A stretch of DNA of 64,000 nucleotides, taken from contig JAIOSB010000027.1 in NCBI GenBank assembly GCA_021107795.1, positions 290 through 64,289 of the forward strand, given 5' to 3'. This DNA is from a bacterium. Its GTDB lineage: Bacteria > Patescibacteriota > Dojkabacteria > SC72. Shown here in pieces: positions 8,771 to 22,714 of this stretch; position 1 is the first letter of the stretch, and every line of letters starts with the position of its first letter. Made by a program: the position numbers and the translations under genes. The notes below the pieces were generated by a model. The model worked only from the letters and a program-made list of their open reading frames with translations, was not told the origin of the DNA and ran no database searches.

Positions 8771-9940
8771 TTATATTTCTTTGGCATATTTACCATATAC
8801 CCAACCCTCTTTATCTTGCCCAAAGAGTATTTGATACCAACCTTCCTCTTCTTTTACTACAATATATACCTCCCCATCGTTCGCAACATCTATTTTCTCG
8901 CAGCTATACCACCTACATTCCCTTATATTCACGAACCCAAACTCTGGAGAGACCATTTTTACTAATGTATTATCACCTTTGGTTACAGTAAACTCAACCA
9001 CAAATTCAGAGTCTGAGAAGACTTCCTTCTTGAATTTGTAAATCTCGAATGTTTCTACATTTTCTCCGGGTAATACCTTAGGATCTAACTTAAATGTCAT
9101 CTCTATACTTTCTCCTGGTAGTACATATCTGTCAGAAGAAATATGTGTTGGTTTACTAAAACTGTCCCACTCCCCATTAAGAGCATATATACTTTCTTTA
9201 GAATCTTTCACTGATATATATATTGGGTATTTATCAGAAAGCCATACAAAGTCATTTCCATTCTTTATAGTTACTTTAACTTGCAGTGTATTCCCTATCT
9301 CTACAGCCTCTTCATATTCTACACTCTCAATCTCAGCTACATACTCCAAGTGTTCTCTCTCACTAACCTTCCATTCTTCTAGGCTATCACCAATTGATGA
9401 CTTAAACAGGTTGTTGGATTCCACTAGCTCAAGTTTTGAGAGAGTGGCTTCTGATTCTACGATATTGAAAGAATGGCTGTCATATTGAGTAATTCCATAT
9501 TTGTGAGATAGGTCATTCGCAAGTTCTAGAATGGAGGATTTTGCTTTACTACTTACTTGTGCATTATTCGATAGATATGCTACTACAATATATTTTGCAT
9601 CTGTAAGTTTTAAAGTATCTACATTTTGTGTACTGAATATATCTCCATTTTCATCAATTGCGTAGTGGAAAGGTATATTTCCTAGTTTCAGTTTTGTAAT
9701 TGAGTAGTAATATGTTACATCAAGGTAATCTTCTGTACTTAGGTTTAAGGTGTCGTAACTTCCCTCAACTTGCGTAAAGAGGATTTTAGTTGGTTGTTGG
9801 TATTGATATTCTACACCAGCGACTAGAGAAGTATCAAAATCGGAGTATGATTCTTCATATCCTAATATTGGAGTAGTAAATATTGCAAGGAAAAGGATTG
9901 TTAGTAAGATATTTTTAATTTTCATATCACATTGTACCAA
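8771..9940 (-). CDS. Secreted protein with C-terminal SH3b-like domain; possible cell-wall binding. An amidase_2-like N-region is uncertain.
   Basis: Signal peptide MKIKNILLTILFLAIFTTPILG, so the true start may be Met6. The C-terminus FVNIRECRWYSCEKIDV..GEVYIVVKEEEGWYQILFGQDKEGWVYGKY fits the bacterial SH3 pattern. The FHYAIDENGDIF...VVAYLSNN segment only weakly resembles amidase_2. Confidence 0.4.
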   Translation of the reverse strand: MVQCDMKIKNILLTILFLAIFTTPILGYEESYSDFDTSLVAGVEYQYQQPTKILFTQVEGSYDTLNLSTEDYLDVTYYYSITKLKLGNIPFHYAIDENGDIFSTQNVDTLKLTDAKYIVVAYLSNNAQVSSKAKSSILELANDLSHKYGITQYDSHSFNIVESEATLSKLELVESNNLFKSSIGDSLEEWKVSEREHLEYVAEIESVEYEEAVEIGNTLQVKVTIKNGNDFVWLSDKYPIYISVKDSKESIYALNGEWDSFSKPTHISSDRYVLPGESIEMTFKLDPKVLPGENVETFEIYKFKKEVFSDSEFVVEFTVTKGDNTLVKMVSPEFGFVNIRECRWYSCEKIDVANDGEVYIVVKEEEGWYQILFGQDKEGWVYGKYAKEI

Positions 9941-10882
9941 TTATTCTACACTTTTGACATATTCAGGATCAATTGCATTCATGAATCCTACAAAAGGTAC
10001 ACTAAAGAGTTCTTTTTCATATTCAACATCACATACTCCTGAGATTTCGTAGGAGTAGTATAGGTAGTTTTGATTACAATTGACAAAGTAAAGGACTGGT
10101 TCAACCGTATTGATAGAACATTTTTCATATTTTAATTCCACATCCATTGTCTCATATGAAAACTCGTCAACTTCTATCATTCCAGTTGCATCAATGGTTA
10201 TACTTTTAGGATATTGAGGAGAGGAGAGATATAATTCTAAAACATTGGTTTCCGCTATCATGGGGACTATATATTCCGATTTCTCAATTTGTGCTAGTAA
10301 TACTCTCGCAGTACTTAAATATCCGTTTGTTAAATAGAAATAGTCAGAGCTACCCGAGCCTACTTTCACCTCTTTTTCATCGATAATTCTATTAACCCTA
10401 TACATCCTAAAATTTTCTCCTTCGTCTATGATAGGGGTAGTATATTTAATTGAAGTGTCTAAGTAAGTCGATATGAATTCTTCTATGGTGCCAAATCTTA
10501 TCGCTTCAGGATATTTCGTAAGATTTATCATAAGGACTGTAGTGTCAATATCATATCTTAATACCTCCGCATTATCTTTCTCCCATTTTACAAAATTCAT
10601 ATCAGAGGTCTTTTGCAAACTACTATCTATTTCAAATGCAAATTGGTCTAGATATTCTGGGATTGTGTTAGATTTACAAATATAGAGGGGGGAATCTCCT
10701 GATTCAAGTTCCACATCTATTCTAAGATTGTATTCCTTGTAATCACTGAGGTAGGGATTTGCATCTACTAGCTCACTTTCTAATACGTTTGGCTGGAGTA
10801 AAGAGTAAAGAAGGAATATTCCTGCAAGAAGCATTGTTACTACACCTACCACTATTAAGATTTTTAATGTTTTTTTATTCAT
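9941..10882 (-). CDS. Hypothetical membrane-anchored extracellular protein
   Basis: N-terminal TM (LKILIVVGVVTMLLAGIFLLYSLL); no recognisable domain; stop/start abuts neighbouring genes. Confidence 0.45.
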   Translation of the reverse strand: MNKKTLKILIVVGVVTMLLAGIFLLYSLLQPNVLESELVDANPYLSDYKEYNLRIDVELESGDSPLYICKSNTIPEYLDQFAFEIDSSLQKTSDMNFVKWEKDNAEVLRYDIDTTVLMINLTKYPEAIRFGTIEEFISTYLDTSIKYTTPIIDEGENFRMYRVNRIIDEKEVKVGSGSSDYFYLTNGYLSTARVLLAQIEKSEYIVPMIAETNVLELYLSSPQYPKSITIDATGMIEVDEFSYETMDVELKYEKCSINTVEPVLYFVNCNQNYLYYSYEISGVCDVEYEKELFSVPFVGFMNAIDPEYVKSVE

Positions 10883-10897
10883 AATTTTTATTAATTA

Positions 10898-13807
10898 TTA
10901 AGGACGACAAGGTGGACATTTTGATTCTGATTGAACTCCATTTACACAACCCATATCCACTAAGAAAGCGATAGGGTCAATATATTGACCGTTATGTGTT
11001 ATTGTAAGGTGTACATGAGCTCCTGTCCAGCAATAGAAAACCCCATTCTTATTAGGCCTGGTTGTCCCCAAAGGATCATCAGCAACTATCTCAGCTGCAT
11101 ATTGGTAGATATATGCGACTGGCTCACCAGCTTTGTAGTTACGACCATTTCCTGGAGGTATTAGTTTGGTATGCATGAGATTAAACACATTTCCCTGACC
11201 ATCACTGAACTCTATATTCCACCCAGTAAAACCACCGTCAGTACATCTCCATGCAGCCATGCTTGATAGTTTTGCTGTACAGGTAGAGGTGTCACAATAT
11301 TGTGGAGCGAAGAAAAACTTCATTCCTGCTAAGTCTACTGGGTATAGATTTGTAATATTCTTGTGAGAACACTTTGTATTACTAAATCCCTGAGTACAAC
11401 GATATTTGACATCACCAAATGGACAGCTAGAATTGGTTGGTGCAGGGATATTGATAGGAGGAGGAACAAAGTTACCACTAGAATACAGATAGCCAGAGCT
11501 AAATCCTCCATATCCTCCAAAACCTTTATTTTCGTATATGGTACCTGGTATTTCTCTAGAATATGAATCTACTGAGGCCCTATTGCTATACTCACTTGAA
11601 GCTCCAATTAACAATATTAGTCCAAATACCCCGACAAAAGCATAAACAATTACCTTTATCGACAACTTCGTAACTCCTTCCATAACCCAAGCTACTACCA
11701 CTGTCACGGCTGTACCCAAAGGACCTGCAATTGCAGTACCTGCAAGACCAAATGCTGCGACAATACCTTGAGATATAGCACTTGATAAGGCAGCTCCTCC
11801 TGTTGCCTTCCATGATGTCAATAAAGCCATAGCAGCTTTGTCTTTTGTAAAGAATTTAAGCTTAGAGAGAACAGAGAATACACCCTTTCTTATACCCGTT
11901 TGTACTTTCCCCAAGGTTTTTTCTTGAAATAGACTCAACATCCTTGCAGGTGTGCTAAATATAGCTGTAACTTTAGACCATTGTTCAAGTGCATTTGATA
12001 TTTTCTCAGCTTTAAAAAATTTTTTAGCAAAAGCACTGTTTTCATCCCCTAAACCTTTTAGAACATAGCCCAATATATTTCTGTATTTAGGTTCTTTGGC
12101 AAGCAATTGGATTTGTTCCGTAGAATTAAGTTTTTTGTATTTTTTATAAAATTTCCAGAATTTAGGATCTTGCAATTCTTTGAATACTCCAGACTTAACA
12201 CTCCACATTTTCTTGATTTCTATTTTTTTATTATCTGCCACCCATGCAAACCCTTCTCCTGTAAACATAGATTTTACCCAAGTTGCTGGGTTCATATAGT
12301 AAAATCGAACCATACCATCGTTGTATGCATCTCTTAAATTTCGCTTATATGAAATCTCTGCTGATTTTGATTTCACAAATTCTACTTTATTCCACTTCCC
12401 CTTGCCAATTAATATTGTACCCGCATTATCTACTGGGCAGCCATAATATCCTTTAATAGGGTTGTAGAAATCCCCATTGAGAATAGCTTCAATTCCTCCT
12501 GGTCCAAAAGTCTGTTTCACCCCATAATAAAGACCCTCAGCTGCTCCAATTCCACTCCACAATTGAACACTATTCAAAGATCTTCTCGTCGATCTTAATT
12601 GTTTAATATTCTTTTGAGCTACAGATATCTCAGCTCTCTTCTGTGATTTTGACAATTTGCCATAATCTATAAGATTACTACCTGTACCAAATGTCTTCCC
12701 ACTTCTAATAGCTTTTAATCGGTCTCTTAACTCTTCCTCGTTAGATCGGATATTGCTCTTTGCTCTCTTCAATTTAAAAAGTATTCCCTCATCTTTACTT
12801 CCATCAAGACTCTCTGCTCCCTTCATAGCCCTAGCATCGAGAGTGTCATACTTTTTCCATAACTCTAAGATATTATTCGAACTTTCTAGCTTATTATATT
12901 CCACCAATTCTTTTGCTGTTAGTTGAGACTTCGTCCTGTTACCTAACAAATCGTTTTGCCTTTCTTCAAACTCCAGACCTAAAAGGCTCCTAAATGTTTC
13001 AGCACTAGAAATTGTGTCGGTAATCTTATCTATATTATCTTGAGTGTCTTCCCACCGTTTACTATCCGTTTTCTTGTTCAAATTCTTCAAAGAGGCTTCT
13101 AATGCATTAATACCTTCCATACCATTAAGAGAATTAATCTGATTGGTTAACTTCTCCTTCAGCTCCTTTCCTTTCCTTGTATTTTCATCCACCTTGTTCT
13201 TTCTTGCAATTAATTTTCTAACGTCAGTCCTACTCACATATCCATCTTTTCTTAATTCTTCAGAGGCTCGTACAATCCATTGCCTATCTCTAGGACTTCC
13301 CGAATCTTGGGCTGCCTGTCCTACTGCTCTCTCAAGGGTATTTTTAAGATCCCCATACCCCTCGAATAGCCCCATCTTTTTGGCATATGTACTCCCTGCT
13401 AAATATCTCATAGCCTCACCAGCCCATCTGATATTCTCCATTTTAGATATGGTTTTGTTTGTCTCAAAGAGTTTGTCTATGAATTCATCAGGCTTCTCGA
13501 AGAAATCGGGTAACCCACTTGCTGTCAGCTTGACTACAGGTATACGACTAGTCTGTACTCCCACTTTGATAGTCGGATCAACCAGTCCTTGCATAGCTCC
13601 TAGGAATTGATCTCCCACAAACATCCCTGGCATAGCCAATGCATCTACCAAGGTTTGTACATACTCAGAACTTGCTTGACTATCTGCTGTTGGTGGAGGT
13701 CTTACTGGTTTCCTTTGCTCTGGAGGTAATTCAGATTGTTCCAGAACAAAACCTAGGATATCTGATACAGATGATATTGTTTTATCCTTACCCTTATATC
13801 CAGCCAT
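10898..13807 (-). CDS. Large bitopic protein: ~690-aa cytoplasmic coiled-coil-rich N-domain, 2 TM helices, extracellular C-terminal M23 (LytM-type) peptidase-like domain
   Basis: No signal peptide. The TM pair is ...IVAAFGLAGTAIAGPLGTAVTVVVAWV... / ...VIVYAFVGVFGLILLIGA... The C-terminus has the M23 pattern VFNLMHTKLIPPGNGRNYKAGEPVAYI...GTTRPNKNG...CWTGAHVHLTITHNGQYIDP (HxH with flanking Gly-rich loops). Confidence 0.55.
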   Translation of the reverse strand: MAGYKGKDKTISSVSDILGFVLEQSELPPEQRKPVRPPPTADSQASSEYVQTLVDALAMPGMFVGDQFLGAMQGLVDPTIKVGVQTSRIPVVKLTASGLPDFFEKPDEFIDKLFETNKTISKMENIRWAGEAMRYLAGSTYAKKMGLFEGYGDLKNTLERAVGQAAQDSGSPRDRQWIVRASEELRKDGYVSRTDVRKLIARKNKVDENTRKGKELKEKLTNQINSLNGMEGINALEASLKNLNKKTDSKRWEDTQDNIDKITDTISSAETFRSLLGLEFEERQNDLLGNRTKSQLTAKELVEYNKLESSNNILELWKKYDTLDARAMKGAESLDGSKDEGILFKLKRAKSNIRSNEEELRDRLKAIRSGKTFGTGSNLIDYGKLSKSQKRAEISVAQKNIKQLRSTRRSLNSVQLWSGIGAAEGLYYGVKQTFGPGGIEAILNGDFYNPIKGYYGCPVDNAGTILIGKGKWNKVEFVKSKSAEISYKRNLRDAYNDGMVRFYYMNPATWVKSMFTGEGFAWVADNKKIEIKKMWSVKSGVFKELQDPKFWKFYKKYKKLNSTEQIQLLAKEPKYRNILGYVLKGLGDENSAFAKKFFKAEKISNALEQWSKVTAIFSTPARMLSLFQEKTLGKVQTGIRKGVFSVLSKLKFFTKDKAAMALLTSWKATGGAALSSAISQGIVAAFGLAGTAIAGPLGTAVTVVVAWVMEGVTKLSIKVIVYAFVGVFGLILLIGASSEYSNRASVDSYSREIPGTIYENKGFGGYGGFSSGYLYSSGNFVPPPINIPAPTNSSCPFGDVKYRCTQGFSNTKCSHKNITNLYPVDLAGMKFFFAPQYCDTSTCTAKLSSMAAWRCTDGGFTGWNIEFSDGQGNVFNLMHTKLIPPGNGRNYKAGEPVAYIYQYAAEIVADDPLGTTRPNKNGVFYCWTGAHVHLTITHNGQYIDPIAFLVDMGCVNGVQSESKCPPCRP

Positions 13808-13817
13808 ATATTTTTAT

Positions 13818-15266
13818 TTACTTTATTAATTTCCCTAACAATGGAATTCCGCCCAAAGCCTGTTTTGCAGCTTGTGCTGCATCCCCTGCATCTTTTGAGG
13901 TCGTAGGTGGTAGTAAAACTTTAGCGTATACATCTGCTTTAGAAGCTATAAAGATGACGAAGATTTGTAATACAAAAATTAATAATCCACCAAGCAAGTC
14001 TTGACTCTGATCAATTTGCGCTGTTGTTTGAGGAAGTGTGAGCTTATCCGGTCCTGGTAGCGATAAACCACCATCGCTTACAGCATAAAGAACTCCTGGG
14101 ATATTAAGAATTGCAAATGTAATCGGATATACTAACACATTTCTCATAATACTTTTCATCCAATTGATAAAACTTGCACTTTGACCTGGAATAGCTGACA
14201 TAGCAATTTGGAAAGGACCTGTTATTACAGCAATTAGAATACCAATATATGCCTTTATTAAAGTTAGAAAAACCTTAAAAACACCGACTGTCACTACAGC
14301 TAAAATAGCCAATACCAAGATTAATCCTACAAGTCCAACGACGACACCTGTAAGAGGGGCTGCAATAAATCCAACGACAACACCTATAGCTGCAGTTCCA
14401 CCAACAAGACCCAGTAACCCACCCTTACCTCCAAAGTCTGCAAATTGAGTCATTTCTTCAAAAAGGCCTTCCGGTGTAAACGCCCTAAATATACTACCCA
14501 AACTTTCCAGTGTAATAGGGTCACTATATTCACTACTACTAAAAATATCTACTAGAAGGACCATCATGAGCCCTCCAATATCTATTATCACTCCCGCTAT
14601 TGCAAAACTAAAGGTAACCCCTATTAACGCAAGAATAATGTTTGGTAGAGTATTCCCAAGAGTCACTAATGTCTGTCCTCCTAGTTTACTTCTAAACATG
14701 ATCATGAATCCAACAACTATCATGATTAATATGAAGAATACATAAGTAATATTCCTAACCTGTGACCATAATCCACTGATACCAGTATTAACCAACTCAT
14801 CATATCCTGAGTCAAATCCACTAGTTGTAATACTTGCATACACAGAACTATCTGCCTGATAACCAGGTACCCACTCTTCTGCCAAATGCGCATATACATT
14901 AACAAGAGGTTGTGATTCGTATAAAGCATATACTCCATCGGATGTCATACCATATATACCTCTTTTCATGTCAGGCGATATCGTATCTGAGTCCAACATT
15001 GCTTGATAGTCTGAAGATATTTCTGGTGCTAGATAAATAATTGCATTAACCACTGCGGTATTGGCACTAACAGCCTGTGACCTAGCAGAGTTATACTCAT
15101 CTCCCTCTGCCCCCTGCCCCACATTCACAGCTTCTACAGTAGATCCATATGATCCACTAAGGTCTAAACCTGTGTATTCTTGAGCATACGCATTAGTAGA
15201 TAAGAAGAAGAAAGCTATAACAAGTACTGACCAAAACAAATCTTTATTAAATCTATTTATTTTCAT
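13818..15266 (-). CDS. Polytopic membrane protein, VirB6/TrbL-like topology (signal peptide, ~150-aa extracytoplasmic segment, ~7-8 Gly-rich TM helices)
   Basis: Signal peptide LFWSVLVIAFFFLSTNAYAQ, then hydrophilic Ser/Tyr-rich segment, then consecutive hydrophobic Gly-rich helices (GLLGLVGGTAAIGVVVGFIAAPLTGVVVGLVGLILVLAILAVV...). Confidence 0.4.
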   Translation of the reverse strand: MKINRFNKDLFWSVLVIAFFFLSTNAYAQEYTGLDLSGSYGSTVEAVNVGQGAEGDEYNSARSQAVSANTAVVNAIIYLAPEISSDYQAMLDSDTISPDMKRGIYGMTSDGVYALYESQPLVNVYAHLAEEWVPGYQADSSVYASITTSGFDSGYDELVNTGISGLWSQVRNITYVFFILIMIVVGFMIMFRSKLGGQTLVTLGNTLPNIILALIGVTFSFAIAGVIIDIGGLMMVLLVDIFSSSEYSDPITLESLGSIFRAFTPEGLFEEMTQFADFGGKGGLLGLVGGTAAIGVVVGFIAAPLTGVVVGLVGLILVLAILAVVTVGVFKVFLTLIKAYIGILIAVITGPFQIAMSAIPGQSASFINWMKSIMRNVLVYPITFAILNIPGVLYAVSDGGLSLPGPDKLTLPQTTAQIDQSQDLLGGLLIFVLQIFVIFIASKADVYAKVLLPPTTSKDAGDAAQAAKQALGGIPLLGKLIK

Positions 15267-15290
15267 AGGATAATTAAAAAATATTAAATA

Positions 15291-16631
15291 TTACATCTTA
15301 TATACAGGATCTGTTCTATTCTCACTCTCCCATACATGAAAATTCATATAATCCATTCTATCAGGAAATACCTCCTGAGGCATATTATCATGTGACTGAA
15401 ATTCTAATTCTTGAGTAATATAGTCAATATCCCAAGCACAAGAAAGAGCCTTATTACCATATCCTCCAATATTTGCATAACAAGTTGTTAAGACATAAAT
15501 CTTCTGTGACTCATCAGCATTTGGAATTGAAAAACTTCCATTTCTTAACTTATTGAACTCCGTTACACACTTTCCATCAATACAATCTGCTTTACTACCC
15601 CAAGGAGACTCCATAATTACAACAATACTTGCAGTATTTATACAATTCTCATCTGCACCACTTATGCTAGAACACCTATCTGCATCAAAGATATTCATTA
15701 TTTCCTTAAAAAACGATATTACAATTTGCTTAAGACTTGGAGTACAACCTATCATCTCTGTATCTAAATCCATATTGATAAATGTAGTGTTCGTATCACA
15801 ATCATCTATACCATCATCTTCTTGCTCTGGAATATTTTCATAATATCCTGGATAATTCTGTGATTGACCCAATACATATGATCCAGACAAATATTTCTCT
15901 GGTGTCGGGTTAGAATAGTTTCTACAAGCTGCTCCACAATCATTAACTTGATACTTAGAGATAGAGATTTCACTTGTACCTGAGCCTTTGGCATTAGCAG
16001 TACCTTCAATGGAATAATTAATACCAAAAGATTTCGTTTTAGAAGCTTCCCCAGCATCTATAATAGCTTGTGTCTGAGTCTCTCCTGGGTACATATTCCC
16101 TGCAACCACTTCTTTATTAATCATCTCTCCCGCAGGTCTTAGTGTCCAGTGTTCAGTACCATCTTCTTCAGTAAATATTTGCCTAACAGATGAGTCCATA
16201 GTTGGAGATCCATTCAAAAGAGGTGGTACTTCGATACTAGTAAGAGAAATCGAAGCCTTTCTATCTACCATATCCCCTATACTCAGTTCTCTATCTTCTT
16301 TACCCATGTCCGCATCGAAAGAGAAAGTCCTAGCACATACTTTCTCGGAGGAATAGCTGTAGAAAGGAGTTACACATACATCCTGTTCTCCTAAAACCAT
16401 TCCTGGTTTAACCTCTCTAATCGGTTTGAAATTTTCATCTATTTCAAAGAACAAAGCTTGTTCCAATTGCCAGTCCTCTTCATTGGCCTCTACTTTCTCA
16501 CGAAGTACATACTCTTGAGTATCAGCTTGGATATGAGTAACCCTTTGTGTCTTGTTTATAACAAAAACCCCAAACAAAATAAGGAAAGATAAAAGAAGGA
16601 CAGGTTTTCGCGAATACAATTTCTTTGACAT
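15291..16631 (-). CDS. Cys-rich secreted/anchored hypothetical protein
   Basis: N-terminal TM (PVLLLSFLILFGVFVI), many paired cysteines (CGAAC, CDTNTT, CIDGKC), acidic. Confidence 0.45.
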   Translation of the reverse strand: MSKKLYSRKPVLLLSFLILFGVFVINKTQRVTHIQADTQEYVLREKVEANEEDWQLEQALFFEIDENFKPIREVKPGMVLGEQDVCVTPFYSYSSEKVCARTFSFDADMGKEDRELSIGDMVDRKASISLTSIEVPPLLNGSPTMDSSVRQIFTEEDGTEHWTLRPAGEMINKEVVAGNMYPGETQTQAIIDAGEASKTKSFGINYSIEGTANAKGSGTSEISISKYQVNDCGAACRNYSNPTPEKYLSGSYVLGQSQNYPGYYENIPEQEDDGIDDCDTNTTFINMDLDTEMIGCTPSLKQIVISFFKEIMNIFDADRCSSISGADENCINTASIVVIMESPWGSKADCIDGKCVTEFNKLRNGSFSIPNADESQKIYVLTTCYANIGGYGNKALSCAWDIDYITQELEFQSHDNMPQEVFPDRMDYMNFHVWESENRTDPVYKM

Positions 16632-16669
16632 AGTACAATATACATCGAAAAGAAGATGTATTCAATTGA

Positions 16670-18283
16670 TTAATCTATAAGAATGCCATAATCAGAAAGT
16701 AATGGGATTGAACTGTATGCTGAATTACTTGAATCAGAGACAGAGACTTCTACTTCTTCAGAAACAGCTTCTCCAACAGTCATTTCTGTAGCTGAAGGGT
16801 TTGTGAAATATTTAGAACTAAAGTTAACGATATCATCATTACTTTTATCGAAATATCCGCCCTCTGCATCTCTTGCTCCACCAATTGTCAAAATCCAAGA
16901 CCCTTCACTATCTACTAAGGTAGATATCGGGTAGCTTGTACCACTAGAACCAATACCGTCATTGTCCGTAAAGGTTGCAACAACAAGAGCATTTTTATAA
17001 TCCACAACCTCAAGAATACCTACAATGGTCTCAAACTGTGGAGGGCTGGATTGTGTAGCAAAAGTTTTTACTTCACCTTCATATTCATATACATCTTCTC
17101 CCGAGTATATTTCAAAAAAGTATGTTGTCTCTGGTTGTAATTGTGCAATCTCAATACTATGCAAGAAATATTCTCCTTGAGACGCTATACCATCTCTCTC
17201 ATCTCTCCCTTTATTAGACAAATCTGATGTAGTAGTTCCATACATTACATAGCCTTGTTGTGATTCCTTAGAGAACCATATTATCGAACAACTAACATCC
17301 GTAAGATTTGTAATCATTACACTCTCTACTCCATATACCTCCGGTTGAGAAGGCACTACTCCACTATTTGATACCATATCAATCCAAGCTAAATCACTCT
17401 TAAGTTCGTATAGGTTATCGGGAGTTTCATCTTCAATTTTCTCTTCTTCTTCTACCACAGGTACTACATATGAGTCTTTTTCTTCAATTATCATATCAGG
17501 TTTTTCACCTTCTTCTGTAGCTACAAGTTTCGTAGCGTCAGAGATATAGGTATCATATGGACTTCCAAAGATTACAAGCGTTTCCGTTAGTTTCATACTA
17601 GAATCAAAGATTGTCCCATATTGTCCTTCTACCACACCTGCATTCCCAACACTTGACACTCCCAGTATTACTAAGTCTGTTGAGTCTAACAGTGTATACA
17701 TACTCTTATCCTCAATACTTCTTAACGATGAGAGATCCACTAACCAGTTCCCATTGCTAGATGGAACAGTTGCTACTGGGTATGTCGTTTTGTCCTTGGG
17801 GAATATATATATTAGGGCATCGTCATCACTTATATCAGAGAGTTCTCCATGTACGGGTGTAGGGGTTGGAATATCTGCACTAATATTGGCTGTAGTAAAA
17901 CTAAACTCTTCCCCTTCTATATCTGTGTACATATCTTCTCCTGATATGATTTTAAAATCATATTCTGTATTTGGTTCTAAACTTTGAATTTCAACGTAGT
18001 GAGTATTTCTCTTCTCATTTCCCCTCTTATCTATCACTGGATTTTTCTCAGTTCCATTGAGTACAGGGATTACCGACCCTATTACTTCACTTTCAGTAGT
18101 CCATGTTACTGTGATGGAATTGGTAGTAAGGTTTGCAAGTATTGCATCTTTGGGTTGTGTATTTACTCCTGCATTTGTAAACCATCGTGCACCACTGTAT
18201 ATGGCAAAGAGTGTAAGAGGAATACCTAGTACCAGCGTAATTATTGTAGTTAGTTGCTTCTTTTGGTATGGAGTTATGTACAT
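16670..18283 (-). CDS. N-terminally anchored protein with two Fn3-like (purple-acid-phosphatase-N-like) domains
   Basis: TM anchor LTTIITLVLGIPLTLFAIYS. Repeat 1 is NSITVTWTTESEVIGSVIPVLNG...HYVEIQSLEPNTEYDFKIISG. Repeat 2 is CSIIWFSKESQQGYVMYG...LHSIEIAQLQPETTYFFEIYSG. Confidence 0.5.
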   Translation of the reverse strand: MYITPYQKKQLTTIITLVLGIPLTLFAIYSGARWFTNAGVNTQPKDAILANLTTNSITVTWTTESEVIGSVIPVLNGTEKNPVIDKRGNEKRNTHYVEIQSLEPNTEYDFKIISGEDMYTDIEGEEFSFTTANISADIPTPTPVHGELSDISDDDALIYIFPKDKTTYPVATVPSSNGNWLVDLSSLRSIEDKSMYTLLDSTDLVILGVSSVGNAGVVEGQYGTIFDSSMKLTETLVIFGSPYDTYISDATKLVATEEGEKPDMIIEEKDSYVVPVVEEEEKIEDETPDNLYELKSDLAWIDMVSNSGVVPSQPEVYGVESVMITNLTDVSCSIIWFSKESQQGYVMYGTTTSDLSNKGRDERDGIASQGEYFLHSIEIAQLQPETTYFFEIYSGEDVYEYEGEVKTFATQSSPPQFETIVGILEVVDYKNALVVATFTDNDGIGSSGTSYPISTLVDSEGSWILTIGGARDAEGGYFDKSNDDIVNFSSKYFTNPSATEMTVGEAVSEEVEVSVSDSSNSAYSSIPLLSDYGILID

Positions 18284-18390
18284 AGCTCTATATTACATTT
18301 ATTATTTCTATTAGACAATGGGGAGGGATCTTTGACGATGTGGATAATCGAGTTCATCTTTTATTCATAATCAATATGTAGAATATTAGT

Positions 18391-18879
18391 ATGAGTCAAG
18401 AGGATATTACATATGTATTTATAGATGCTCAGAATCTATATCTGGGTATAAGAGATCTAGGCTGGCATATTGATTATAGAAAACTCAATGTTTACCTGAA
18501 GGAAAAGTATCAAGCTCAATGTCTTTATATGTATATTGGATATCTGAAAGGAAATCAAAAGCTCTATACCAAACTTACACAGGCTGGTTTCGATATTATA
18601 TTCAAGGATACAGTGCGATATGGAAGAAACCGGGTTATTAAAGGTAACGTTGATGTAGATCTCACAGTAGATGTAATAAGAAAAGCATCCCTATACAACA
18701 AAGCCATTTTTATAAGTGCGGATGGGGATTTTTGTGCACTTTACAACTACCTTCTCAAAGAAAAAGGGAAAGAAATTTTAATACTAATCCCCAATATTTA
18801 TAAATATTCAAAGTTACTATTAAAATATAAGGGTAGACTAAGATTTATGAATGATTTGAGAGCCAAGATTGGGGAATAA
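18391..18879 (+). CDS. NYN-domain (LabA/DUF88-like PIN-fold) protein
   Basis: FIDAQNLY...GNVDVDLTVDV...FISADGDF acidic triad arrangement typical of NYN/LabA-like nucleases. Confidence 0.6.
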   Translation: MSQEDITYVFIDAQNLYLGIRDLGWHIDYRKLNVYLKEKYQAQCLYMYIGYLKGNQKLYTKLTQAGFDIIFKDTVRYGRNRVIKGNVDVDLTVDVIRKASLYNKAIFISADGDFCALYNYLLKEKGKEILILIPNIYKYSKLLLKYKGRLRFMNDLRAKIGE

Positions 18880-19014
18880 AAAGGGGGAGTGTTGCTTGTA
18901 AGACGAAACTTACAACCTTCCCTCCCTCGTGATAGCTCATTATAATAAATATCTACGATAATTACAACACGAGCAACACTAATTCATATCATGTTCACAA
19001 TCAGAAAAGGCTTT

Positions 19015-19329
19015 TTACTTCTTCATCCCTGAGAGAAACTCTGTAAGCGTAGTTAGTAATCCTGATATTTGTCTAACAGGTTGTATTACTGCTTGGTTTA
19101 CTTCTTCTACAGTCCCTTTTGTAGTACTTACCATTGCTTGAACATCATCAAGTATCACATTCGTCTTAATTAGTGTTTTGTTTGCTTCTTCAATGATCTT
19201 TGTACTACCCTGAACTACTCCTCTGGTATCTTTGGTAACCATACCTAGTTGGTAGAGTATGAATGTAAAGAATGCTACAGGTATCCCCATAAGTATCATC
19301 CAGTATATTGATGGTATTGTGTCGAACAT
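19015..19329 (-). CDS. Small single-TM membrane protein (DUF948-like?)
   Basis: 104 aa, one N-terminal TM (IYWMILMGIPVAFFTFILYQL) followed by a helical coiled-coil-like tail. Confidence 0.35.
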   Translation of the reverse strand: MFDTIPSIYWMILMGIPVAFFTFILYQLGMVTKDTRGVVQGSTKIIEEANKTLIKTNVILDDVQAMVSTTKGTVEEVNQAVIQPVRQISGLLTTLTEFLSGMKK

Positions 19330-19375
19330 ATGTATAGTGTTTTAATTAATCTATACCTTAGAATATCAGATATCC

Positions 19376-22300
19376 CTAGTTATTACCACATTGACCATCT
19401 AATTCACCATCTGGATGCCATATTAATGATTTGCATGTACTGTCTTCTGGTTGAAAGCTAGATATTCTCACAAAGTAGCCATTTGATGTAGTTATTGGAT
19501 AATCAAAACCATATTCTGTTCCCTCAGAGACTTGCAACCCCTCAAACATACCTTTTGATACAGGCCACCATGTTATATTATCTGCAGTTAAGCCTGAGAT
19601 TCTATTCACTGAGTCAATGAGTGTACGTGCTGTAAATGCTTTAGTATACCCACTTACTCCGATTAAGTTCCAACCAGGTATAAAACTTACAGGTACATTC
19701 GTATTAATATCAAATCCAGGAATAGGTATTCTACTATTCCTAGTAGCTACTATCGCATATCCAAAGCCTGGTAGTAGAGGGAAGTCAGAGCCGGCAGGAG
19801 TTCCTGATTCTGTAGACTTACTCATAATCCCTCCCTTCCACGATCCGTTGGAGAAGTATGTTATCTGACTGATTACTTCAAATTGGCTATTAGCTTCTTC
19901 CAATAGTTGTTCTGCAGTGTAGGATTCCCCGACATTCAGTGCAGGATAGAAATCGAATGATACTAGGTTTAAGCCCTCTTTCAGCACTATATCATACGCA
20001 TTAGATACTTGATTGACACTTAGTTCCAGCACACTAGATGATACTAAGTAGTCTCCATTTGCCACATCAAATTTCCCGTCATTGTTTATATCTTTATAAT
20101 ATATATATTTATAGTCAGCATTATAGTATTGCACGACGTTCTCACTATCTGGTCTAATTACTTCATAGTAACCATCTTTAGTCACACTTAAAAACAGCTC
20201 TTCCGTCTCTTGGGCCGACACTTTAGGTGCTGAGAAAGAGGCGATTTCCTGGAGGATATTATCCAAATTTAATGTACTAGTTTCAGAACATTCTCCAAAC
20301 GGTACAATTTTATATCCAGCTACACATCCTTTACCAACTTCTTGTTTTTGTTTTACTCCAAACCCACTATCACAACAGACATACCCTTCTTTAACATACT
20401 CTGTATCGAATGTAGCTGTACCACCTCCTGTTTTTATAACTGTATTAAAACTCTCACCATATATGGTTTCTAAATCAGCTTTCTGACCACAGGCATTAAA
20501 TTGAACCTCTATATCCCCTTTTGAGGTCAGGCAGTAATATTGAAGACCCTCAATTTCCTCCAAAGGTAGTAACCAACGATCGTCAAAAGAATCTTTATTA
20601 AAATCTCCGAGACTTTGCTTTGTTGGAGTCGCATAAGGAGTCTCGACTGATGGCCCAGAATAGTAATAATAATCTCCATCATCATCCAGATATATGTAAT
20701 CTCCATTCCAAGTAGGACTACCAACGTCATTTGCTATCACAAGATCCTCCGTTATAGTCTCTCTTAAAAAGTACGAGGCAGAGACACACTCTTTATTACC
20801 GCACTCATCACAATTGATAATATTTCCTTCATCCTTATTGAAACAGTACATCTCGTTTTCCAAATTAACAGATTTCACTACCTTATCAGCACAATACTCA
20901 TAAAAGTCTACCGTTTCATACTCACATTGACCAATTCCAGTTGGGTAGTAATTAGGGATATATACATAGCTAGATTCCTTTTTTACATTATGACAACACT
21001 CTAAGGCAATCACTTCTCCACTATCATTAGTTACAAGAGGTGCGAAATCTTCTGCAGACAGATTCCCTGATAATGAAGATTCCTCACCCTCCTCATTTGA
21101 GACGCTAGGTTGGCACTGAAACCAGAAGGATTCGCAGGGTGTGCCGTAATCGTCCTGGCTGGGACAGTTTATGAGATCATAGTCTGTAGTATAGTCTGAG
21201 CAGCGGAGTTTTCCCTCCTCCTCTTGATCTACACTTTCCTTCGGTTTAGGAGAAGGTAGTCCAGGATTATTACCCATACACTCGCTTTTCTCTTTATCCC
21301 AATAACAACCTCCATAATAATTCTCATTACAAACAGTTTCTGTAGTATAACCACTACAACCAGTTATCTCAGGACCCTCTACTACAAGTTCTATCTTGTC
21401 CTCAAGAAATCCCATAATCTCAGCACTCCCCTGCAAATCTCCAATAATATCTTCATATTCCGACGAATCTACAACGTCGACATTACCTGATACACTGTTT
21501 TTAACAAGTTCTCCATCTAATAAAGTATAGAGATTCCCTGCAGCATCTACTACTTGATCCTCTCCTATAACCTTCTTTTCTCCATCAACCTCAACCATCT
21601 GCCTACCCCTCTCCATACACCCCGCAGGCTTTGGACAAAGAGCTTGCAATCGGATATTAAATTGGCGAACTCCATTCCATAGACAAGTCTTGTAACAAGG
21701 ACTTGTTGGTGCACAACCACCAGCAAGAATAGGTCCATAAGAGACTGTTTTCCCTTCACTGTCCTCACACCTTGCCTCATCCCATGCAGCATTGACATAA
21801 GGTATAAAGGATTCTAATAAATCCTCTGCATTATTCTCAAAATCTATATCCTCTTCACTATTACCCAAGATACTCTCTACAGGAATATCATCTGTTCCAA
21901 AGGTTATCATATAGCACTGCTTTGGAGTAAAAGACTCATATTGATAACAAACCTCACCATTCATACCATTTATATCATCAAATACAGAACCATTTAAATC
22001 TCTAAAAGCCCCCTTATCAATACTCCACCCACCCTCACTATTAGTAGAAGCTGAAAGTAAATTAGAAATCAAAACATTACTCTCATCTACTACCCCTACA
22101 AAAACCATAGAATCTTTAGAGTCATCCTCATACAACAATCCTCCCGTATCAAGCTTCATACCATAAATCTTCCCATACATTGGATTAGGGACCACCATCT
22201 CGACAACATCCTGTATAACAGTTGTAACAGAAAACTCACTGAGAGTATCAAAAGCATATTCATATGAGTTTGTCTTACTACTAGACCATAGGAGTGAACC

Positions 22301-22714
22301 ATTTGATAATACAAAATTGTAAATCTTTCCTTCTTCAAGACCTGAAACAGTAACATGATGAACGTAATATTTATTATTCTTTACCTTGTATTCATTCAAA
22401 CAGTCAATACTATCTACACCACTCTCAAGTGCATCATTATTCAAATCTTCAACACAACTGGCCTGGGCTAAAACAACATCTCTATCATCATATGCAAACC
22501 TAACACCATTACTCCAGTACATTACAAATCCCTGTGTAGGCTGATGTGTTAGCCAGGATATAGTTGCAGAAGATGCAGTAATATTGGTAACCCTGACATC
22601 ATATGCTTGGAGCTTATTGCCCTGTACAATATAGTAAACTAGATAAGAGAAGGATATTAGCACAATAACTGTTAAGAGTCCCAATCCAAACATCTTGCTT
22701 CTTTTCATATTCAA
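19376..22714 (-). CDS. Giant (1112 aa) Cys-rich surface protein with N-terminal anchor and Fn3-like (PAP-N-like) domain
   Basis: TM anchor FGLGLLTVIVLISFSYLVYYIV, then the Fn3-like signature VTNITASSATISWLTHQPTQGFVMYWSNG...HHVTVSGLEEGKIYNFVLSNG. After that come >40 cysteines in clustered pairs (CDECGNKEC, ECCHN, VCCDSG). Confidence 0.5.
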   Translation of the reverse strand: MNMKRSKMFGLGLLTVIVLISFSYLVYYIVQGNKLQAYDVRVTNITASSATISWLTHQPTQGFVMYWSNGVRFAYDDRDVVLAQASCVEDLNNDALESGVDSIDCLNEYKVKNNKYYVHHVTVSGLEEGKIYNFVLSNGSLLWSSSKTNSYEYAFDTLSEFSVTTVIQDVVEMVVPNPMYGKIYGMKLDTGGLLYEDDSKDSMVFVGVVDESNVLISNLLSASTNSEGGWSIDKGAFRDLNGSVFDDINGMNGEVCYQYESFTPKQCYMITFGTDDIPVESILGNSEEDIDFENNAEDLLESFIPYVNAAWDEARCEDSEGKTVSYGPILAGGCAPTSPCYKTCLWNGVRQFNIRLQALCPKPAGCMERGRQMVEVDGEKKVIGEDQVVDAAGNLYTLLDGELVKNSVSGNVDVVDSSEYEDIIGDLQGSAEIMGFLEDKIELVVEGPEITGCSGYTTETVCNENYYGGCYWDKEKSECMGNNPGLPSPKPKESVDQEEEGKLRCSDYTTDYDLINCPSQDDYGTPCESFWFQCQPSVSNEEGEESSLSGNLSAEDFAPLVTNDSGEVIALECCHNVKKESSYVYIPNYYPTGIGQCEYETVDFYEYCADKVVKSVNLENEMYCFNKDEGNIINCDECGNKECVSASYFLRETITEDLVIANDVGSPTWNGDYIYLDDDGDYYYYSGPSVETPYATPTKQSLGDFNKDSFDDRWLLPLEEIEGLQYYCLTSKGDIEVQFNACGQKADLETIYGESFNTVIKTGGGTATFDTEYVKEGYVCCDSGFGVKQKQEVGKGCVAGYKIVPFGECSETSTLNLDNILQEIASFSAPKVSAQETEELFLSVTKDGYYEVIRPDSENVVQYYNADYKYIYYKDINNDGKFDVANGDYLVSSSVLELSVNQVSNAYDIVLKEGLNLVSFDFYPALNVGESYTAEQLLEEANSQFEVISQITYFSNGSWKGGIMSKSTESGTPAGSDFPLLPGFGYAIVATRNSRIPIPGFDINTNVPVSFIPGWNLIGVSGYTKAFTARTLIDSVNRISGLTADNITWWPVSKGMFEGLQVSEGTEYGFDYPITTSNGYFVRISSFQPEDSTCKSLIWHPDGELDGQCGNN

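What the first reader, a model, noticed from the sequence alone, without database searches (positions are those of the whole stretch)
10898..13807. 969-aa protein with inside-out architecture: cytoplasmic coiled-coil domain - 2 TM - extracellular M23 peptidase
M23 peptidases are normally fully secreted. This one has no signal peptide and ~690 cytoplasmic residues rich in predicted coiled coil (KELKEKLTNQINSLNG... EELRDRLKAIRS...) before a TM hairpin. The catalytic half-domain with HVH is therefore displayed outside, tethered to a large cytoplasmic module. That topology resembles T4SS/T7SS-associated wall hydrolases or tape-measure proteins more than housekeeping LytM. The cytoplasmic domain could couple wall cutting to an ATPase or assembly state.
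Basis: partly seen in the sequence, partly recalled or inferred. Interest (0 to 1): 0.6.

Follow-up and report, generated by a model that had tools for sequence, protein, structure and literature searches.

The report
Membrane-anchored wall-cutting enzyme of Patescibacteria
The gene encodes a real, unannotated protein of ultra-small (Patescibacteria) bacteria: a large helical domain inside the cell, one membrane anchor, and a zinc cell-wall-cutting (M23) head outside; this layout has a precedent in conjugation-system wall hydrolases, but the inner domain and the conserved gene cluster around it are uncharacterised.

Summary
The 969-aa ORF (10898-13807, minus strand) is real. It is the founding window copy of a family with at least 205 clusters (50% identity), none of them annotated; the named genomes found are Patescibacteria or Ca. 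Dojkabacteria MAGs.

The C-terminal 175 residues are a divergent M23/LytM domain. Pfam misses it in this protein. A family profile hits only M23 structures in the PDB, and the AlphaFold model matches about 30 M23 structures (Foldseek probability about 1.0). H815, D825, H879, H931 and H933 are all present.

An N-in/C-out topology is strongly supported. There is no signal peptide. Family-wide, Cys is 0.05% before the anchor and 4.0% after it, and K+R is 16% versus 6%.

The 670-residue inner domain models confidently (pLDDT 80) but matches no known fold.

The head is exchangeable across the family: M23, an HExxH domain, CHAP or VanY.

The gene sits in a deeply conserved eight-gene envelope cluster. 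That cluster was never next to VirB4 in the eight contexts examined.

The closest analogue is the T4SS hydrolase PrgK, with no detectable homology. I call it a new variant of a known kind, of moderate interest.

The parts
10898..13807 (-). Whole ORF, 969 aa plus stop: family founder in this window
   Evidence: ORF; 13 close homologues, all 'hypothetical'; 205 representative clusters at E<=1e-3, 94 at <=1e-30, almost all full length, 830-1270 aa
13688..13807 (-). Residues 1-40: conserved N-terminal peptide (short amphipathic helix 14-25 'SDILGFVLEQSE', then the Pro/basic stretch 'PPEQRKPVRPP'); no signal peptide; presumed docking motif (inference)
   Evidence: Most conserved region of the protein: 73% identity among close orthologues, 30% family-wide. 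Family consensus 'LGSIFDFIFxxSxKPPxKRKP'. Low pLDDT and flexible in the model.
11801..13687 (-). Residues 41-669: Cys-poor, Lys/Arg-rich alpha-helical domain, presumed cytoplasmic. Contains a poorly conserved helical stretch (206-410, nt 12578-13192) and a conserved core (411-530, nt 12218-12577) with the family motifs 'G..EG', 'LNGDF(F/Y)', 'YY..P', 'GEGFA'.
11597..11800 (-). Residues 670-737: hydrophobic block. Two Gly/Ala-rich weakly hydrophobic helices (~671-694, ~697-712), a short basic loop (KLSIK), and the strong membrane anchor 719-737 (nt 11597-11653).
   Evidence: Flanks follow the positive-inside rule: 6 K/R versus 1 D/E before the block, and net +1.33 just upstream of the anchor family-wide. 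The AlphaFold model is unreliable here (pLDDT ~26).
11426..11596 (-). Residues 738-794: low-complexity G/S/Y/P-rich tether between membrane and enzyme head
   Evidence: Composition (8 G, 11 S, 6 Y, 6 P of 57 residues); pLDDT <50
10901..11425 (-). Residues 795-969: divergent, disulfide-rich (10 Cys) M23/LytM zinc-peptidase domain. Catalytic set: H815 (nt 11363-11365), D825 (11333-11335), H879 (11171-11173), H931 (11015-11017), H933 (11009-11011).
   Evidence: Foldseek versus PDB: about 30 top hits are all M23/LytM, probability ~1.0, TM up to 0.68 of the target. Profile versus PDB: all 17 hits are M23, best E 4.4e-4. Weak Pfam PF01551 hits in 6 of 13 relatives. Residues invariant in the M23-type subfamily and codons verified.
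13818..15266 (-). Upstream neighbour, 482 aa: signal peptide, ~140-aa outer domain and a polytopic membrane domain; always adjacent to the target (10-nt gap here)
   Evidence: TM scan; synteny. No Pfam, NCBIfam or PDB match. hhalign against PrgH gives probability 0.2%.
8771..10882 (-). Downstream neighbours: a 313-aa N-terminally anchored protein (9941-10882) and a 389-aa secreted protein with a PGRP/amidase_2-like domain plus a bacterial SH3 domain (8771-9940)
   Evidence: SH3_3, Pfam E 1.3e-7. Profile of 7 orthologues hits peptidoglycan-recognition proteins in the PDB, best E 7.6e-5. Synteny.
15291..22714 (-). Upstream members of the conserved cluster: 446-aa Cys-rich anchored protein (15291-16631), 537-aa FN3/PAP_N protein (16670-18283), 104-aa TM plus helical protein (19015-19329), 1112-aa FN3 protein with 34 Cys (19376-22714)
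   Evidence: domains, anchors, Cys counts; the same order in relatives down to ~18-22% identity of the target

Best explanation
The ORF encodes a bitopic (N-in/C-out) membrane-anchored peptidoglycan endopeptidase of a family so far seen only in Patescibacteria genomes.

Anatomy:
- A ~670-residue, Cys-free, Lys/Arg-rich helical domain with a highly conserved N-terminal peptide stays in the cytoplasm.
- A hydrophobic block follows; its last helix (719-737) is the anchor, giving one or three passes.
- A ~55-residue flexible G/S/Y/P tether comes next.
- It ends in a disulfide-stabilised M23 zinc peptidase with a complete catalytic set (H815, D825, H879, H931, H933), held just outside the membrane.

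Proposed mechanism: it is the wall-cutting subunit of a conserved eight-gene envelope module. The other members are a polytopic membrane protein, a PGRP+SH3b wall-binding protein, and FN3 or Cys-rich surface proteins. The enzyme cleaves peptide cross-links only in the small zone its tether can reach. The cytoplasmic domain and N-terminal peptide fix where and when this happens by docking to a cytoplasmic or membrane partner. Functionally this parallels PrgK-type T4SS hydrolases, which open the wall for a surface machine. The enzyme head is an exchangeable cassette: M23 in most members, an HExxH domain, CHAP or VanY in others.

Shown: the ORF, the family, the M23 fold and residues, the compartment signature, the module synteny, and the cassette exchange.

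Inferred: catalytic activity, the substrate (own versus host wall), control from the cytoplasm, and physical association with the neighbouring gene products.
For: - ORF and family.
- M23 identity: all 17 profile hits in the PDB are M23. About 30 top Foldseek hits are M23/LytM at probability ~1.0. Six of 13 relatives give weak PF01551 hits. Distant members carry canonical M23 motifs such as 'NHAGID...STGSHLHFE'. The five catalytic residues are invariant or nearly so in the subfamily.
- Topology: no signal peptide and a single hydrophobic block. Across 131 members Cys is 0.047% before the anchor and 4.0% after it, K+R is 16.1% versus 5.8%, and the anchor's mean best-19 KD is 2.63.
- Exchangeable head: 92 M23-type, 30 HExxH-type, 5 with both and 3 with neither, among 130 representatives. 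CHAP E 1.2e-8 and VanY E 5e-21 in long variants. An HExxH-type member sits in the identical locus.
- Module: the same gene order holds in eight distinct contexts, down to ~18% identity of the target.
- Wall-directed neighbour: PGRP-like plus SH3b.
- Precedent for the architecture and role: PrgK (PMC11323569; PMC12857230, section 10).
Against: - No biochemical data exist.
- The window protein itself scores nothing in Pfam at E<=1, and relatives stay below Pfam's gathering score.
- The H-to-D spacing is non-canonical.
- The number of membrane passes is unresolved (AlphaFold pLDDT ~26 in the block), and no dedicated topology predictor was available.
- The cytoplasmic domain has no recognisable fold or partner, so 'control from the cytoplasm' is pure inference.
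- The nature of the module is unknown: five of its proteins match nothing in Pfam or NCBIfam; profile searches of the PDB on three of them (the 482-, 446- and 313-aa proteins) also gave no credible match.
- A short membrane tether argues against action on a host wall but does not prove action on the cell's own wall.
Confidence: 0.6

Rival explanations
1. It is the VirB1-type wall hydrolase of the Patescibacteria type IV secretion system. Together with the adjacent polytopic protein (a cryptic VirB6) and the N-terminally anchored neighbours (VirB8-like), it forms the envelope half of the T4SS, encoded apart from the VirB4 / TrsD / possible PrgI-like (untested) genes.
For: - The architecture is the same as PrgK: intracellular domain, TM helix, extracellular LytM (PMC11323569).
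- The window encodes VirB4 (51369-53759; P-loop_TraG 6e-28) preceded by a TrsD-like gene (NCBIfam 8e-7). No VirB1- or VirB6-like gene lies beside them.
- PMC12102498 reports that VirB6 homologues are scarce or absent in some Patescibacteria classes, that VirB1 is rarely linked to VirB4, and that some VirB1 homologues carry Peptidase_M23 domains.
- The neighbour at 13818-15266 has the general VirB6 look: signal peptide, outer domain, multiple TM helices.
Against: - VirB4 is 37.5 kb away, and none of the eight contexts examined has a T4SS gene within 10 kb.
- hhalign gives probability 0.1% for PrgK against the family and 0.2% for PrgH against the neighbour.
- No T4SS family appears in Pfam or NCBIfam for any cluster protein.
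- The cluster is embedded in a conserved housekeeping block (IF-2, S15, PNPase on one side; UvrD, EF-G, EF-Tu on the other), unlike the origin-proximal T4SS locus described for Patescibacteria.
Confidence: 0.15
2. It is a housekeeping autolysin for the cell's own growth or division. The cytoplasmic helical domain reads out the divisome or elongation machinery (for example FtsZ or FtsA, through the N-terminal peptide) and positions the M23 head at the septum for daughter-cell separation. This would replace the FtsEX-EnvC or PcsB type of control.
For: - It is single-copy in the window, and the locus is chromosomal and syntenic inside a core housekeeping block across deep divergence.
- Wall-directed genes lie nearby: PGRP+SH3b, a G5-domain protein on the opposite strand, and SpoIID next to one distant member.
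- M23 and CHAP heads are the same enzyme types that FtsEX controls in other bacteria (established knowledge).
Against: - The enzyme head is swapped between four unrelated catalytic types, and the protein evolves faster than all its neighbours (59% versus 71-85% identity in L006; 36% versus 46-59% in L001). That is unusual for a core division enzyme.
- The cluster is dominated by large FN3 and Cys-rich surface proteins, which have no known role in division.
- No divisome gene lies in the cluster.
Confidence: 0.15
3. It is a host-directed weapon. At the contact zone between the epibiont and its host cell, the module forms an attachment and feeding structure, and the exchangeable hydrolase head cuts the host's peptidoglycan. 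The head type would track host wall chemistry.
For: - Cassette exchange (M23, HExxH, CHAP, VanY) and accelerated divergence relative to neighbours are typical of antagonistic interfaces.
- The companions are large adhesin-like FN3 and Cys-rich surface proteins.
- Patescibacteria are obligate epibionts where cultured (PMC10633639, PMC12857230).
Against: - The head is tethered to the producer's own membrane by only ~55 residues. That can hardly span its own wall and surface layer to reach another cell.
- No cleavage or release signal was seen.
- The lifestyle of these particular lineages (Dojkabacteria-like MAGs) is unknown.
Confidence: 0.07
4. It is a prophage or tailocin tape-measure or ejection protein (long helical body, hydrophobic segments, C-terminal lytic domain), and the cluster is a degraded phage tail module.
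For: - The domain order is the same as in tape-measure proteins carrying hydrophobic segments and a C-terminal metallopeptidase, for example phage T5 Pb2 (own knowledge).
- Weak, non-significant Foldseek alignments to a cyanophage pre-ejectosome protein (probability 0.38) and to minor tail or tape-measure models (probability <=0.3, TM ~0.1).
Against: - No PHROG family for the target or five neighbours.
- No tblastn hit in 50,697 phage records.
- No capsid, portal, terminase, tail-tube or integrase gene nearby.
- Identical chromosomal position between housekeeping genes in lineages sharing only ~18-22% identity.
Confidence: 0.02

Closest known systems
PrgK of Enterococcus plasmid pCF10 (class DELTA VirB1-like T4SS peptidoglycan hydrolase)
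   Same: Both are signal-less, with an N-terminal intracellular domain, a transmembrane helix, and extracellular wall-hydrolase domains that include a LytM/M23 domain. Both are encoded beside membrane proteins of an envelope machine. In both groups the set of extracellular enzyme domains varies between relatives (PMC11323569; PMC12857230, section 10).
   Different: - There is no detectable sequence relationship (hhalign probability 0.1%).
- The inner domain is 670 residues and well folded, against ~250 poorly predicted residues in PrgK.
- The head is a single M23 with an intact catalytic set, whereas PrgK's LytM is described as mainly regulatory.
- The gene is not next to VirB4.
- The hydrophobic block is tripartite.
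Phage tape-measure proteins with lytic domains (e.g. T5 Pb2; mycobacteriophage and staphylococcal TMPs with M23 or Rpf motifs) - from own knowledge
   Same: A long alpha-helical body, internal hydrophobic or Gly-rich segments, and a C-terminal metallopeptidase or M23 wall-degrading module.
   Different: There is no phage context, no PHROG or phage-genome hit, and no viral fold match. The locus is a conserved core chromosomal one. The helical part is a compact folded domain (pTM 0.64), not a length-ruler rod.
Membrane-anchored M23/LytM proteins SpoIIQ (Bacillus) and MepM/ShyA-type endopeptidases
   Same: These are the best structural matches for the head (3uz0_B SpoIIQ, 6ue4 ShyA). Like the target, they are held at the outer face of the cytoplasmic membrane by an N-proximal anchor.
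   Different: Those proteins have only a few cytoplasmic residues. SpoIIQ lacks catalytic residues. None has a large intracellular domain or a Cys-rich head.
FtsEX-controlled hydrolases (EnvC-amidase, PcsB, RipC) - from own knowledge
   Same: The same concept: an M23 or CHAP wall hydrolase whose action outside is governed by a cytoplasmic state transmitted across the membrane.
   Different: In those systems the coiled coil is extracellular and the signal comes through a separate ABC-type transporter. Here the helical domain is intracellular and covalently joined to the enzyme, and no ATPase lies in the cluster.

Membership tests
Peptidase family M23 (LytM/lysostaphin type) | M23 beta-sheet fold | tested here: met
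   Foldseek of the AlphaFold model against the PDB: about 30 top hits are all M23/LytM domains (SpoIIQ, ShyA, Csd1/2, StM23, EnpA, EnvC, LasA), probability ~1.0, TM up to 0.68 of the target. The model's C-terminal domain has pLDDT 65-85.
Peptidase family M23 (LytM/lysostaphin type) | Score above the curated Pfam PF01551 threshold | tested here: not met
   The window protein has no Pfam hit at E<=1. Six of 13 close relatives hit PF01551 weakly (best E 3e-4). The distant member P0152 scores 26.1 bits against a cut-off of 28.7. A family profile against the PDB returns only M23 chains, best E 4.4e-4. It is therefore a divergent member by profile and fold, but sub-threshold for the curated model.
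Peptidase family M23 (LytM/lysostaphin type) | Zinc and catalytic residues: H-x3-D, a mid-domain H, and H-x-H | tested here: met
   H815...D825, H879 and H931-x-H933 are present and invariant or nearly invariant in the 11 M23-type close relatives. The H-D spacing is 9 instead of 3. Relatives span spacings of 3, 6-7 and 9. The three-dimensional metal-site geometry could not be inspected.
Peptidase family M23 (LytM/lysostaphin type) | Zinc-dependent cleavage of peptidoglycan cross-bridges | not testable with these tools
   Needs a purified ectodomain, a zymogram or muropeptide LC-MS, and H931A and EDTA controls.
Gram-positive T4SS VirB1-like hydrolases (PrgK/TraG/TrsG/CD419) | Membrane anchor with extracellular wall-hydrolase domain(s), optionally an intracellular N-domain | tested here: met
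   Architecture and compartment signature, compared with PrgK as described in PMC11323569.
Gram-positive T4SS VirB1-like hydrolases (PrgK/TraG/TrsG/CD419) | Encoded within a T4SS gene cluster (near virB4) | tested here: not met
   VirB4 lies at 51369-53759, 37.5 kb away. No T4SS gene lies within 10 kb in eight contexts.
Gram-positive T4SS VirB1-like hydrolases (PrgK/TraG/TrsG/CD419) | Sequence or profile homology to a family member | tested here: not met
   hhalign of family alignment A1 against PrgK: probability 0.1%, E 0.43. Only PrgK was tested. The TrsG and CD419 profiles were not available.
Phage tape-measure / ejection proteins | Located in a phage tail or structural gene module; homologues in phage genomes | tested here: not met
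   no phage tblastn hit; no PHROG; no BFVD fold match; no phage genes nearby; conserved core chromosomal locus.
   No hydrophobic stretch in the first 60 residues. The N-terminus 'M..KK...LGSIFDFIF.E' is polar or amphipathic in 130 family members. The N-part is Cys-free and K/R-rich, the opposite of the outside part. DeepTMHMM and SignalP were not available.

The most novel reading that the evidence does not exclude
The eight-gene cluster encodes a previously unrecognised envelope-spanning machine of Patescibacteria. It would be either the missing membrane and wall half (VirB6/VirB1/VirB8 equivalents) of their essential type IV secretion system, or a stand-alone host-contact and feeding organelle. 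The 969-aa protein would be its transmembrane core. Its unmatched cytoplasmic domain and N-terminal peptide would receive a cytoplasmic signal, and its exchangeable hydrolase head (M23, HExxH, CHAP or VanY) would be matched to the wall chemistry it must breach.
Probability: 0.2. Interest if true: 0.8.

Novelty: new variant of a known kind. Interest (0 to 1): 0.5.

Why it matters
Patescibacteria make up a large share of bacterial diversity. They live attached to other cells, and most of their envelope proteins have no assigned function.

This work defines a sizeable unannotated family (at least 205 clusters at 50% identity) with these features:
- a clear enzyme class;
- a clear topology;
- an exchangeable catalytic head;
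- a 670-residue cytoplasmic domain that models confidently yet matches no solved fold;
- a fixed set of seven partner genes.

That gives an experimentally approachable handle on how these minimal cells open or remodel a wall under control from inside the cell. It also offers a candidate for T4SS parts reported as missing in some classes. If it is only a lineage-specific autolysin, the result is a useful annotation rather than a discovery.

Tried and rejected
- **Direct family searches on the target:** Pfam, NCBIfam and PDB sequence searches with the single protein gave nothing.
- **Wider homologue search:** a second homologous-protein run with the 131-sequence alignment returned the same 13 proteins and added nothing.
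- **Related-loci search:** The search for related loci with the broad alignment failed for lack of conserved stretches. The narrow alignment gave 5 loci.
- **Mobile-element origin:** rejected after tblastn against plasmids and phages and PHROGs found nothing.
- **Homology to pCF10 PrgK and PrgH:** tested by hhalign and rejected.
- **Identity of the neighbours:** Pfam or NCBIfam and profile-versus-PDB searches found nothing for the 482-, 446- and 313-aa proteins. Only the 389-aa protein gave a result, PGRP-like.
- **The alternative HExxH head:** it could not be assigned to any Pfam or PDB family. The one precomputed 'DUF3896' label on P0010 is probably spurious.
- **Source names:** cluster-member look-up gave no source names for distant relatives.
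- **Metal-site geometry:** I could not check it, because model coordinates are not exposed.


Full report

A 969-codon ORF runs from 13807 down to 10898 on the minus strand. An identical protein is deposited as 'hypothetical protein K8R20_02910 [bacterium]', and 12 further homologues (36-59% identity, full length) exist. The + strand ORFs that overlap it (13143-13610, 13639-14004) are by-products of the mechanical ORF listing. The first 25 residues are conserved from Met1 in every relative, which fixes the start codon.

A Kyte-Doolittle scan finds no hydrophobic segment in the first 60 residues (maximum 1.12) and only one hydrophobic block, residues 670-737. H931-V-H933 lies in 'CWTGAHVHLTITHNGQYIDP', a typical M23 C-terminal signature. 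The stated length, missing signal peptide, large N-terminal region, hydrophobic block and HVH motif are therefore all present.

**2. Is the C-terminus an M23 peptidase?**

The single sequence gives no Pfam hit even at E<=1 and nothing in the PDB by phmmer. Three independent lines nevertheless agree.

- Six of the 13 close relatives give weak PF01551 hits (best E 3e-4).
- A profile of the 11 M23-type C-terminal domains (alignment A2) retrieves 17 PDB sequences, all of them M23 proteins: a 'lytic endopeptidase' (8s3m), LytM, LasA, ShyA, SpoIIQ and others, best E 4.4e-4.
- In the full-length AlphaFold model the C-terminal domain has pLDDT 65-85. Foldseek against the PDB puts about 30 M23/LytM structures on top at probability ~1.0, with TM up to 0.68 of the target.

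In A2 the residues H815, D825, H879, H931 and H933 are invariant or nearly so (codons verified). These correspond to the two zinc ligands of the first motif, the mid-domain catalytic His, and the HxH pair. The first motif is H-x9-D rather than HxxxD. Distant family members bridge the gap, from the canonical 'NHAGID...YAHL...STGSHLHFE' through H-x6-7-D. I conclude that this is a divergent M23 domain that probably remains catalytic. It is elaborated by 10 cysteines.

**3. Topology**

The block consists of:
- a Gly/Ala/Ser-rich helix (~671-694);
- a Gly-Pro turn;
- a second moderately hydrophobic helix (~697-712);
- a short basic loop (KLSIK);
- a strongly hydrophobic helix (719-737).

Across 131 aligned family members the mean hydropathy of these three helices is 1.18, 1.50 and 2.17. 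The best 19-mer of the last helix averages 2.63 and is never below 1.95. In many members only this last helix exceeds a TM threshold. The stretch before the block has 6 K/R against 1 D/E. The 12 residues before the anchor carry a net +1.33 family-wide.

The strongest evidence is compositional. Upstream of the anchor the family has 0.047% Cys and 16.1% K+R. Downstream it has 4.0% Cys and 5.8% K+R. In this genome the other secreted proteins of the cluster are also Cys-rich (34, 12 and 4 Cys). The two ends therefore lie in different compartments: N-in/C-out, with one or three passes. AlphaFold is uninformative in the block (pLDDT ~26), and no dedicated topology predictor was available.

**4. The family**

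An exhaustive profile search of 1.84 billion representatives finds 205 clusters at E<=1e-3 and 94 at <=1e-30. Almost all are 830-1270 aa and match from end to end. None carries a functional name. The named genomes that could be recovered are Patescibacteria or Ca. Dojkabacteria MAGs; one is labelled Ca. Saccharibacteria.

All members share the same plan:
- a polar or amphipathic N-terminal motif, 'M..KK...LGSIFDFIF.ES.K.P.KRKP';
- 550-800 Cys-poor residues;
- the hydrophobic block;
- a Cys-rich head of about 200 residues.

The N-terminal 40 residues are the most conserved part of the protein (73% among close orthologues, 30% family-wide).

**5. The head is an exchangeable cassette**

Among 130 full-length representatives, 92 have the M23-type HxH head, 30 have a different head with an invariant 'HE..H..Q...EWGAD' signature, 5 have both and 3 have neither. 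Long variants add CHAP (P0041, E 1.2e-8; P0085, E 4e-5) or VanY (P0152, E 5e-21).

The HExxH head matches no Pfam or PDB family. Reading it as a zincin is my inference from the motif alone. An HExxH-type member (P0162) occupies exactly the same chromosomal locus as the M23-type members, so heads have been replaced in situ.

The protein also diverges faster than every neighbour: 59% against 71-85% in L006, 36% against 46-59% in L001, and 22% against 28-42% in L004.

**6. The cytoplasmic domain**

With a 76-sequence alignment AlphaFold gives mean pLDDT 79.6 and pTM 0.64. Residues ~130-670 are confident (many blocks above 90) and 73% helical, with two small beta-hairpins. Residues 1-130 are flexible.

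**7. Genomic context**

The gene is the sixth of eight co-directional genes separated by short gaps of 0-46 nt, apart from one 731-nt gap that holds an opposite-strand ORF:

| Coordinates | Product |
|---|---|
| 19376-22714 | 1112-aa FN3 protein with 34 Cys |
| 19015-19329 | 104-aa TM plus helical protein |
| 16670-18283 | 537-aa FN3 protein |
| 15291-16631 | 446-aa Cys-rich anchored protein |
| 13818-15266 | 482-aa polytopic membrane protein with signal peptide |
| 10898-13807 | the target |
| 9941-10882 | 313-aa anchored protein |
| 8771-9940 | 389-aa secreted protein with SH3_3 |

A profile of the 389-aa protein's orthologues also matches peptidoglycan-recognition (amidase_2-fold) proteins, best E 7.6e-5.

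The same order recurs in eight distinct contexts, including members only ~18-22% identical to the target. It is usually followed by UvrD, a G5 protein, a TPR protein and EF-G, and preceded by RsmE/RsmB, PNPase and IF-2. It is thus a core chromosomal module, not a mobile element. tblastn finds nothing in plasmid or phage collections, and there are no phage genes nearby.

**8. Relation to the type IV secretion system**

The window does encode a VirB4 ATPase (51369-53759). It is preceded by a TrsD-like gene and by a membrane protein that may be PrgI-like (sequence reading only). This is the core set described for Patescibacteria (PMC12102498).

That paper notes that VirB6 is scarce or absent in some classes, that VirB1 is rarely linked to VirB4, and that some VirB1 homologues carry M23 domains. 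PrgK of pCF10 has the same inside-out layout: intracellular domain 1-253, TM helix 254-274, then LytM-SLT-CHAP outside (PMC11323569; PMC12857230, section 10).

Membership, however, fails every test I could run:
- VirB4 is 37.5 kb away.
- No T4SS gene lies near the module in any context.
- hhalign gives 0.1% for PrgK against the family and 0.2% for PrgH against the 482-aa neighbour.
- No T4SS family hits any cluster protein.

**9. Mechanism and verdict**

The best-supported reading is a membrane-anchored, cytoplasmically tethered peptidoglycan endopeptidase that serves a conserved envelope module, also uncharacterised. A ~55-residue flexible tether limits its reach to the wall immediately above its own membrane. 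The invariant N-terminal peptide and the folded inner domain are the obvious candidates for positioning or gating it.

- **Shown:** the ORF, the family, the fold, the catalytic residues, the compartment signature, the cassette exchange and the synteny.
- **Inferred:** catalytic activity, the substrate, regulation, and physical association with the neighbours.

The rivals are ranked in the report sections: the T4SS VirB1 equivalent, a division autolysin, a host-directed weapon, and a phage tape measure. The last is effectively excluded.

I rate this a new variant of a known kind: a PrgK-like layout with an unrelated, much larger inner domain, in a new conserved gene context. Interest is moderate (0.5). 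The most novel reading still open is a new envelope machine or the missing half of the Patescibacteria T4SS, at about 0.2 probability.

Noticed in passing
window 49911-53759 (+): A T4SS mini-cluster. It holds a 273-aa membrane protein that may be PrgI/VirB3-like (judged from the sequence only), a 216-aa TrsD-like protein (NCBIfam TrsD 8e-7) and a 796-aa VirB4 ATPase (P-loop_TraG 6e-28). No VirB1- or VirB6-like gene lies beside them. The cluster is 37.5 kb from the finding.
   Followed up: partly
window 8771-9940 (-): The 389-aa cluster member has a PGRP/amidase_2-like domain (profile versus PDB, best E 7.6e-5) in front of its SH3_3 domain. I did not examine whether it keeps the zinc ligands.
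   Followed up: partly
relatives P0010, P0011, P0162 and ~30 other representatives (alignment A7); locus L015 10001-12748: An alternative Cys-rich head of about 160 residues with invariant H-E-x-x-H...Q...E-W-G-A-D replaces the M23 domain at the same locus. It matches no Pfam or PDB family and may be an undescribed zincin-type wall hydrolase.
   Followed up: partly
window 18391-18879 (+): A 162-aa ORF on the opposite strand interrupts the otherwise co-directional cluster. Only a fragment of it is found in L007, and it is absent from the other related loci, so it looks like a recent insertion.
   Followed up: no
L003 7615-14040: In one relative, about 5.4 kb carrying a 401- and a 417-aa gene plus about a dozen small unannotated ORFs separates a 333-aa gene next to the target's orthologue from the region matching g313/SH3. 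The UvrD gene there is broken into fragments. This may be an insertion or a poor assembly.
   Followed up: no
window 5807-6730 (+): A 307-aa secreted protein whose orthologues carry a G5 domain. Its C-terminus ('MYCESGCN...YKGLYQW') looks like an Rpf or transglycosylase-like domain by eye. It is another wall-directed gene, conserved next to UvrD.
   Followed up: no
window 10898-22714 versus L001, L004 and L006: The target diverges markedly faster than all co-linear neighbours, for example 59% against 71-85% identity in L006.
   Followed up: partly
window ~32000 and ~54000: The AT skew flips sign at ~32 kb and back at ~54 kb. This coincides with the switch of coding strand (minus-strand genes up to 32.4 kb, plus-strand genes to ~53.8 kb). 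GC skew stays negative throughout.
   Followed up: no
window 32446-33240, 39696-41159, 42142-43863 (+): A sortase, a LytR_cpsA_psr protein and a DUF11 surface protein with a C-terminal TM segment. These are further monoderm cell-envelope genes in the same window.
   Followed up: no
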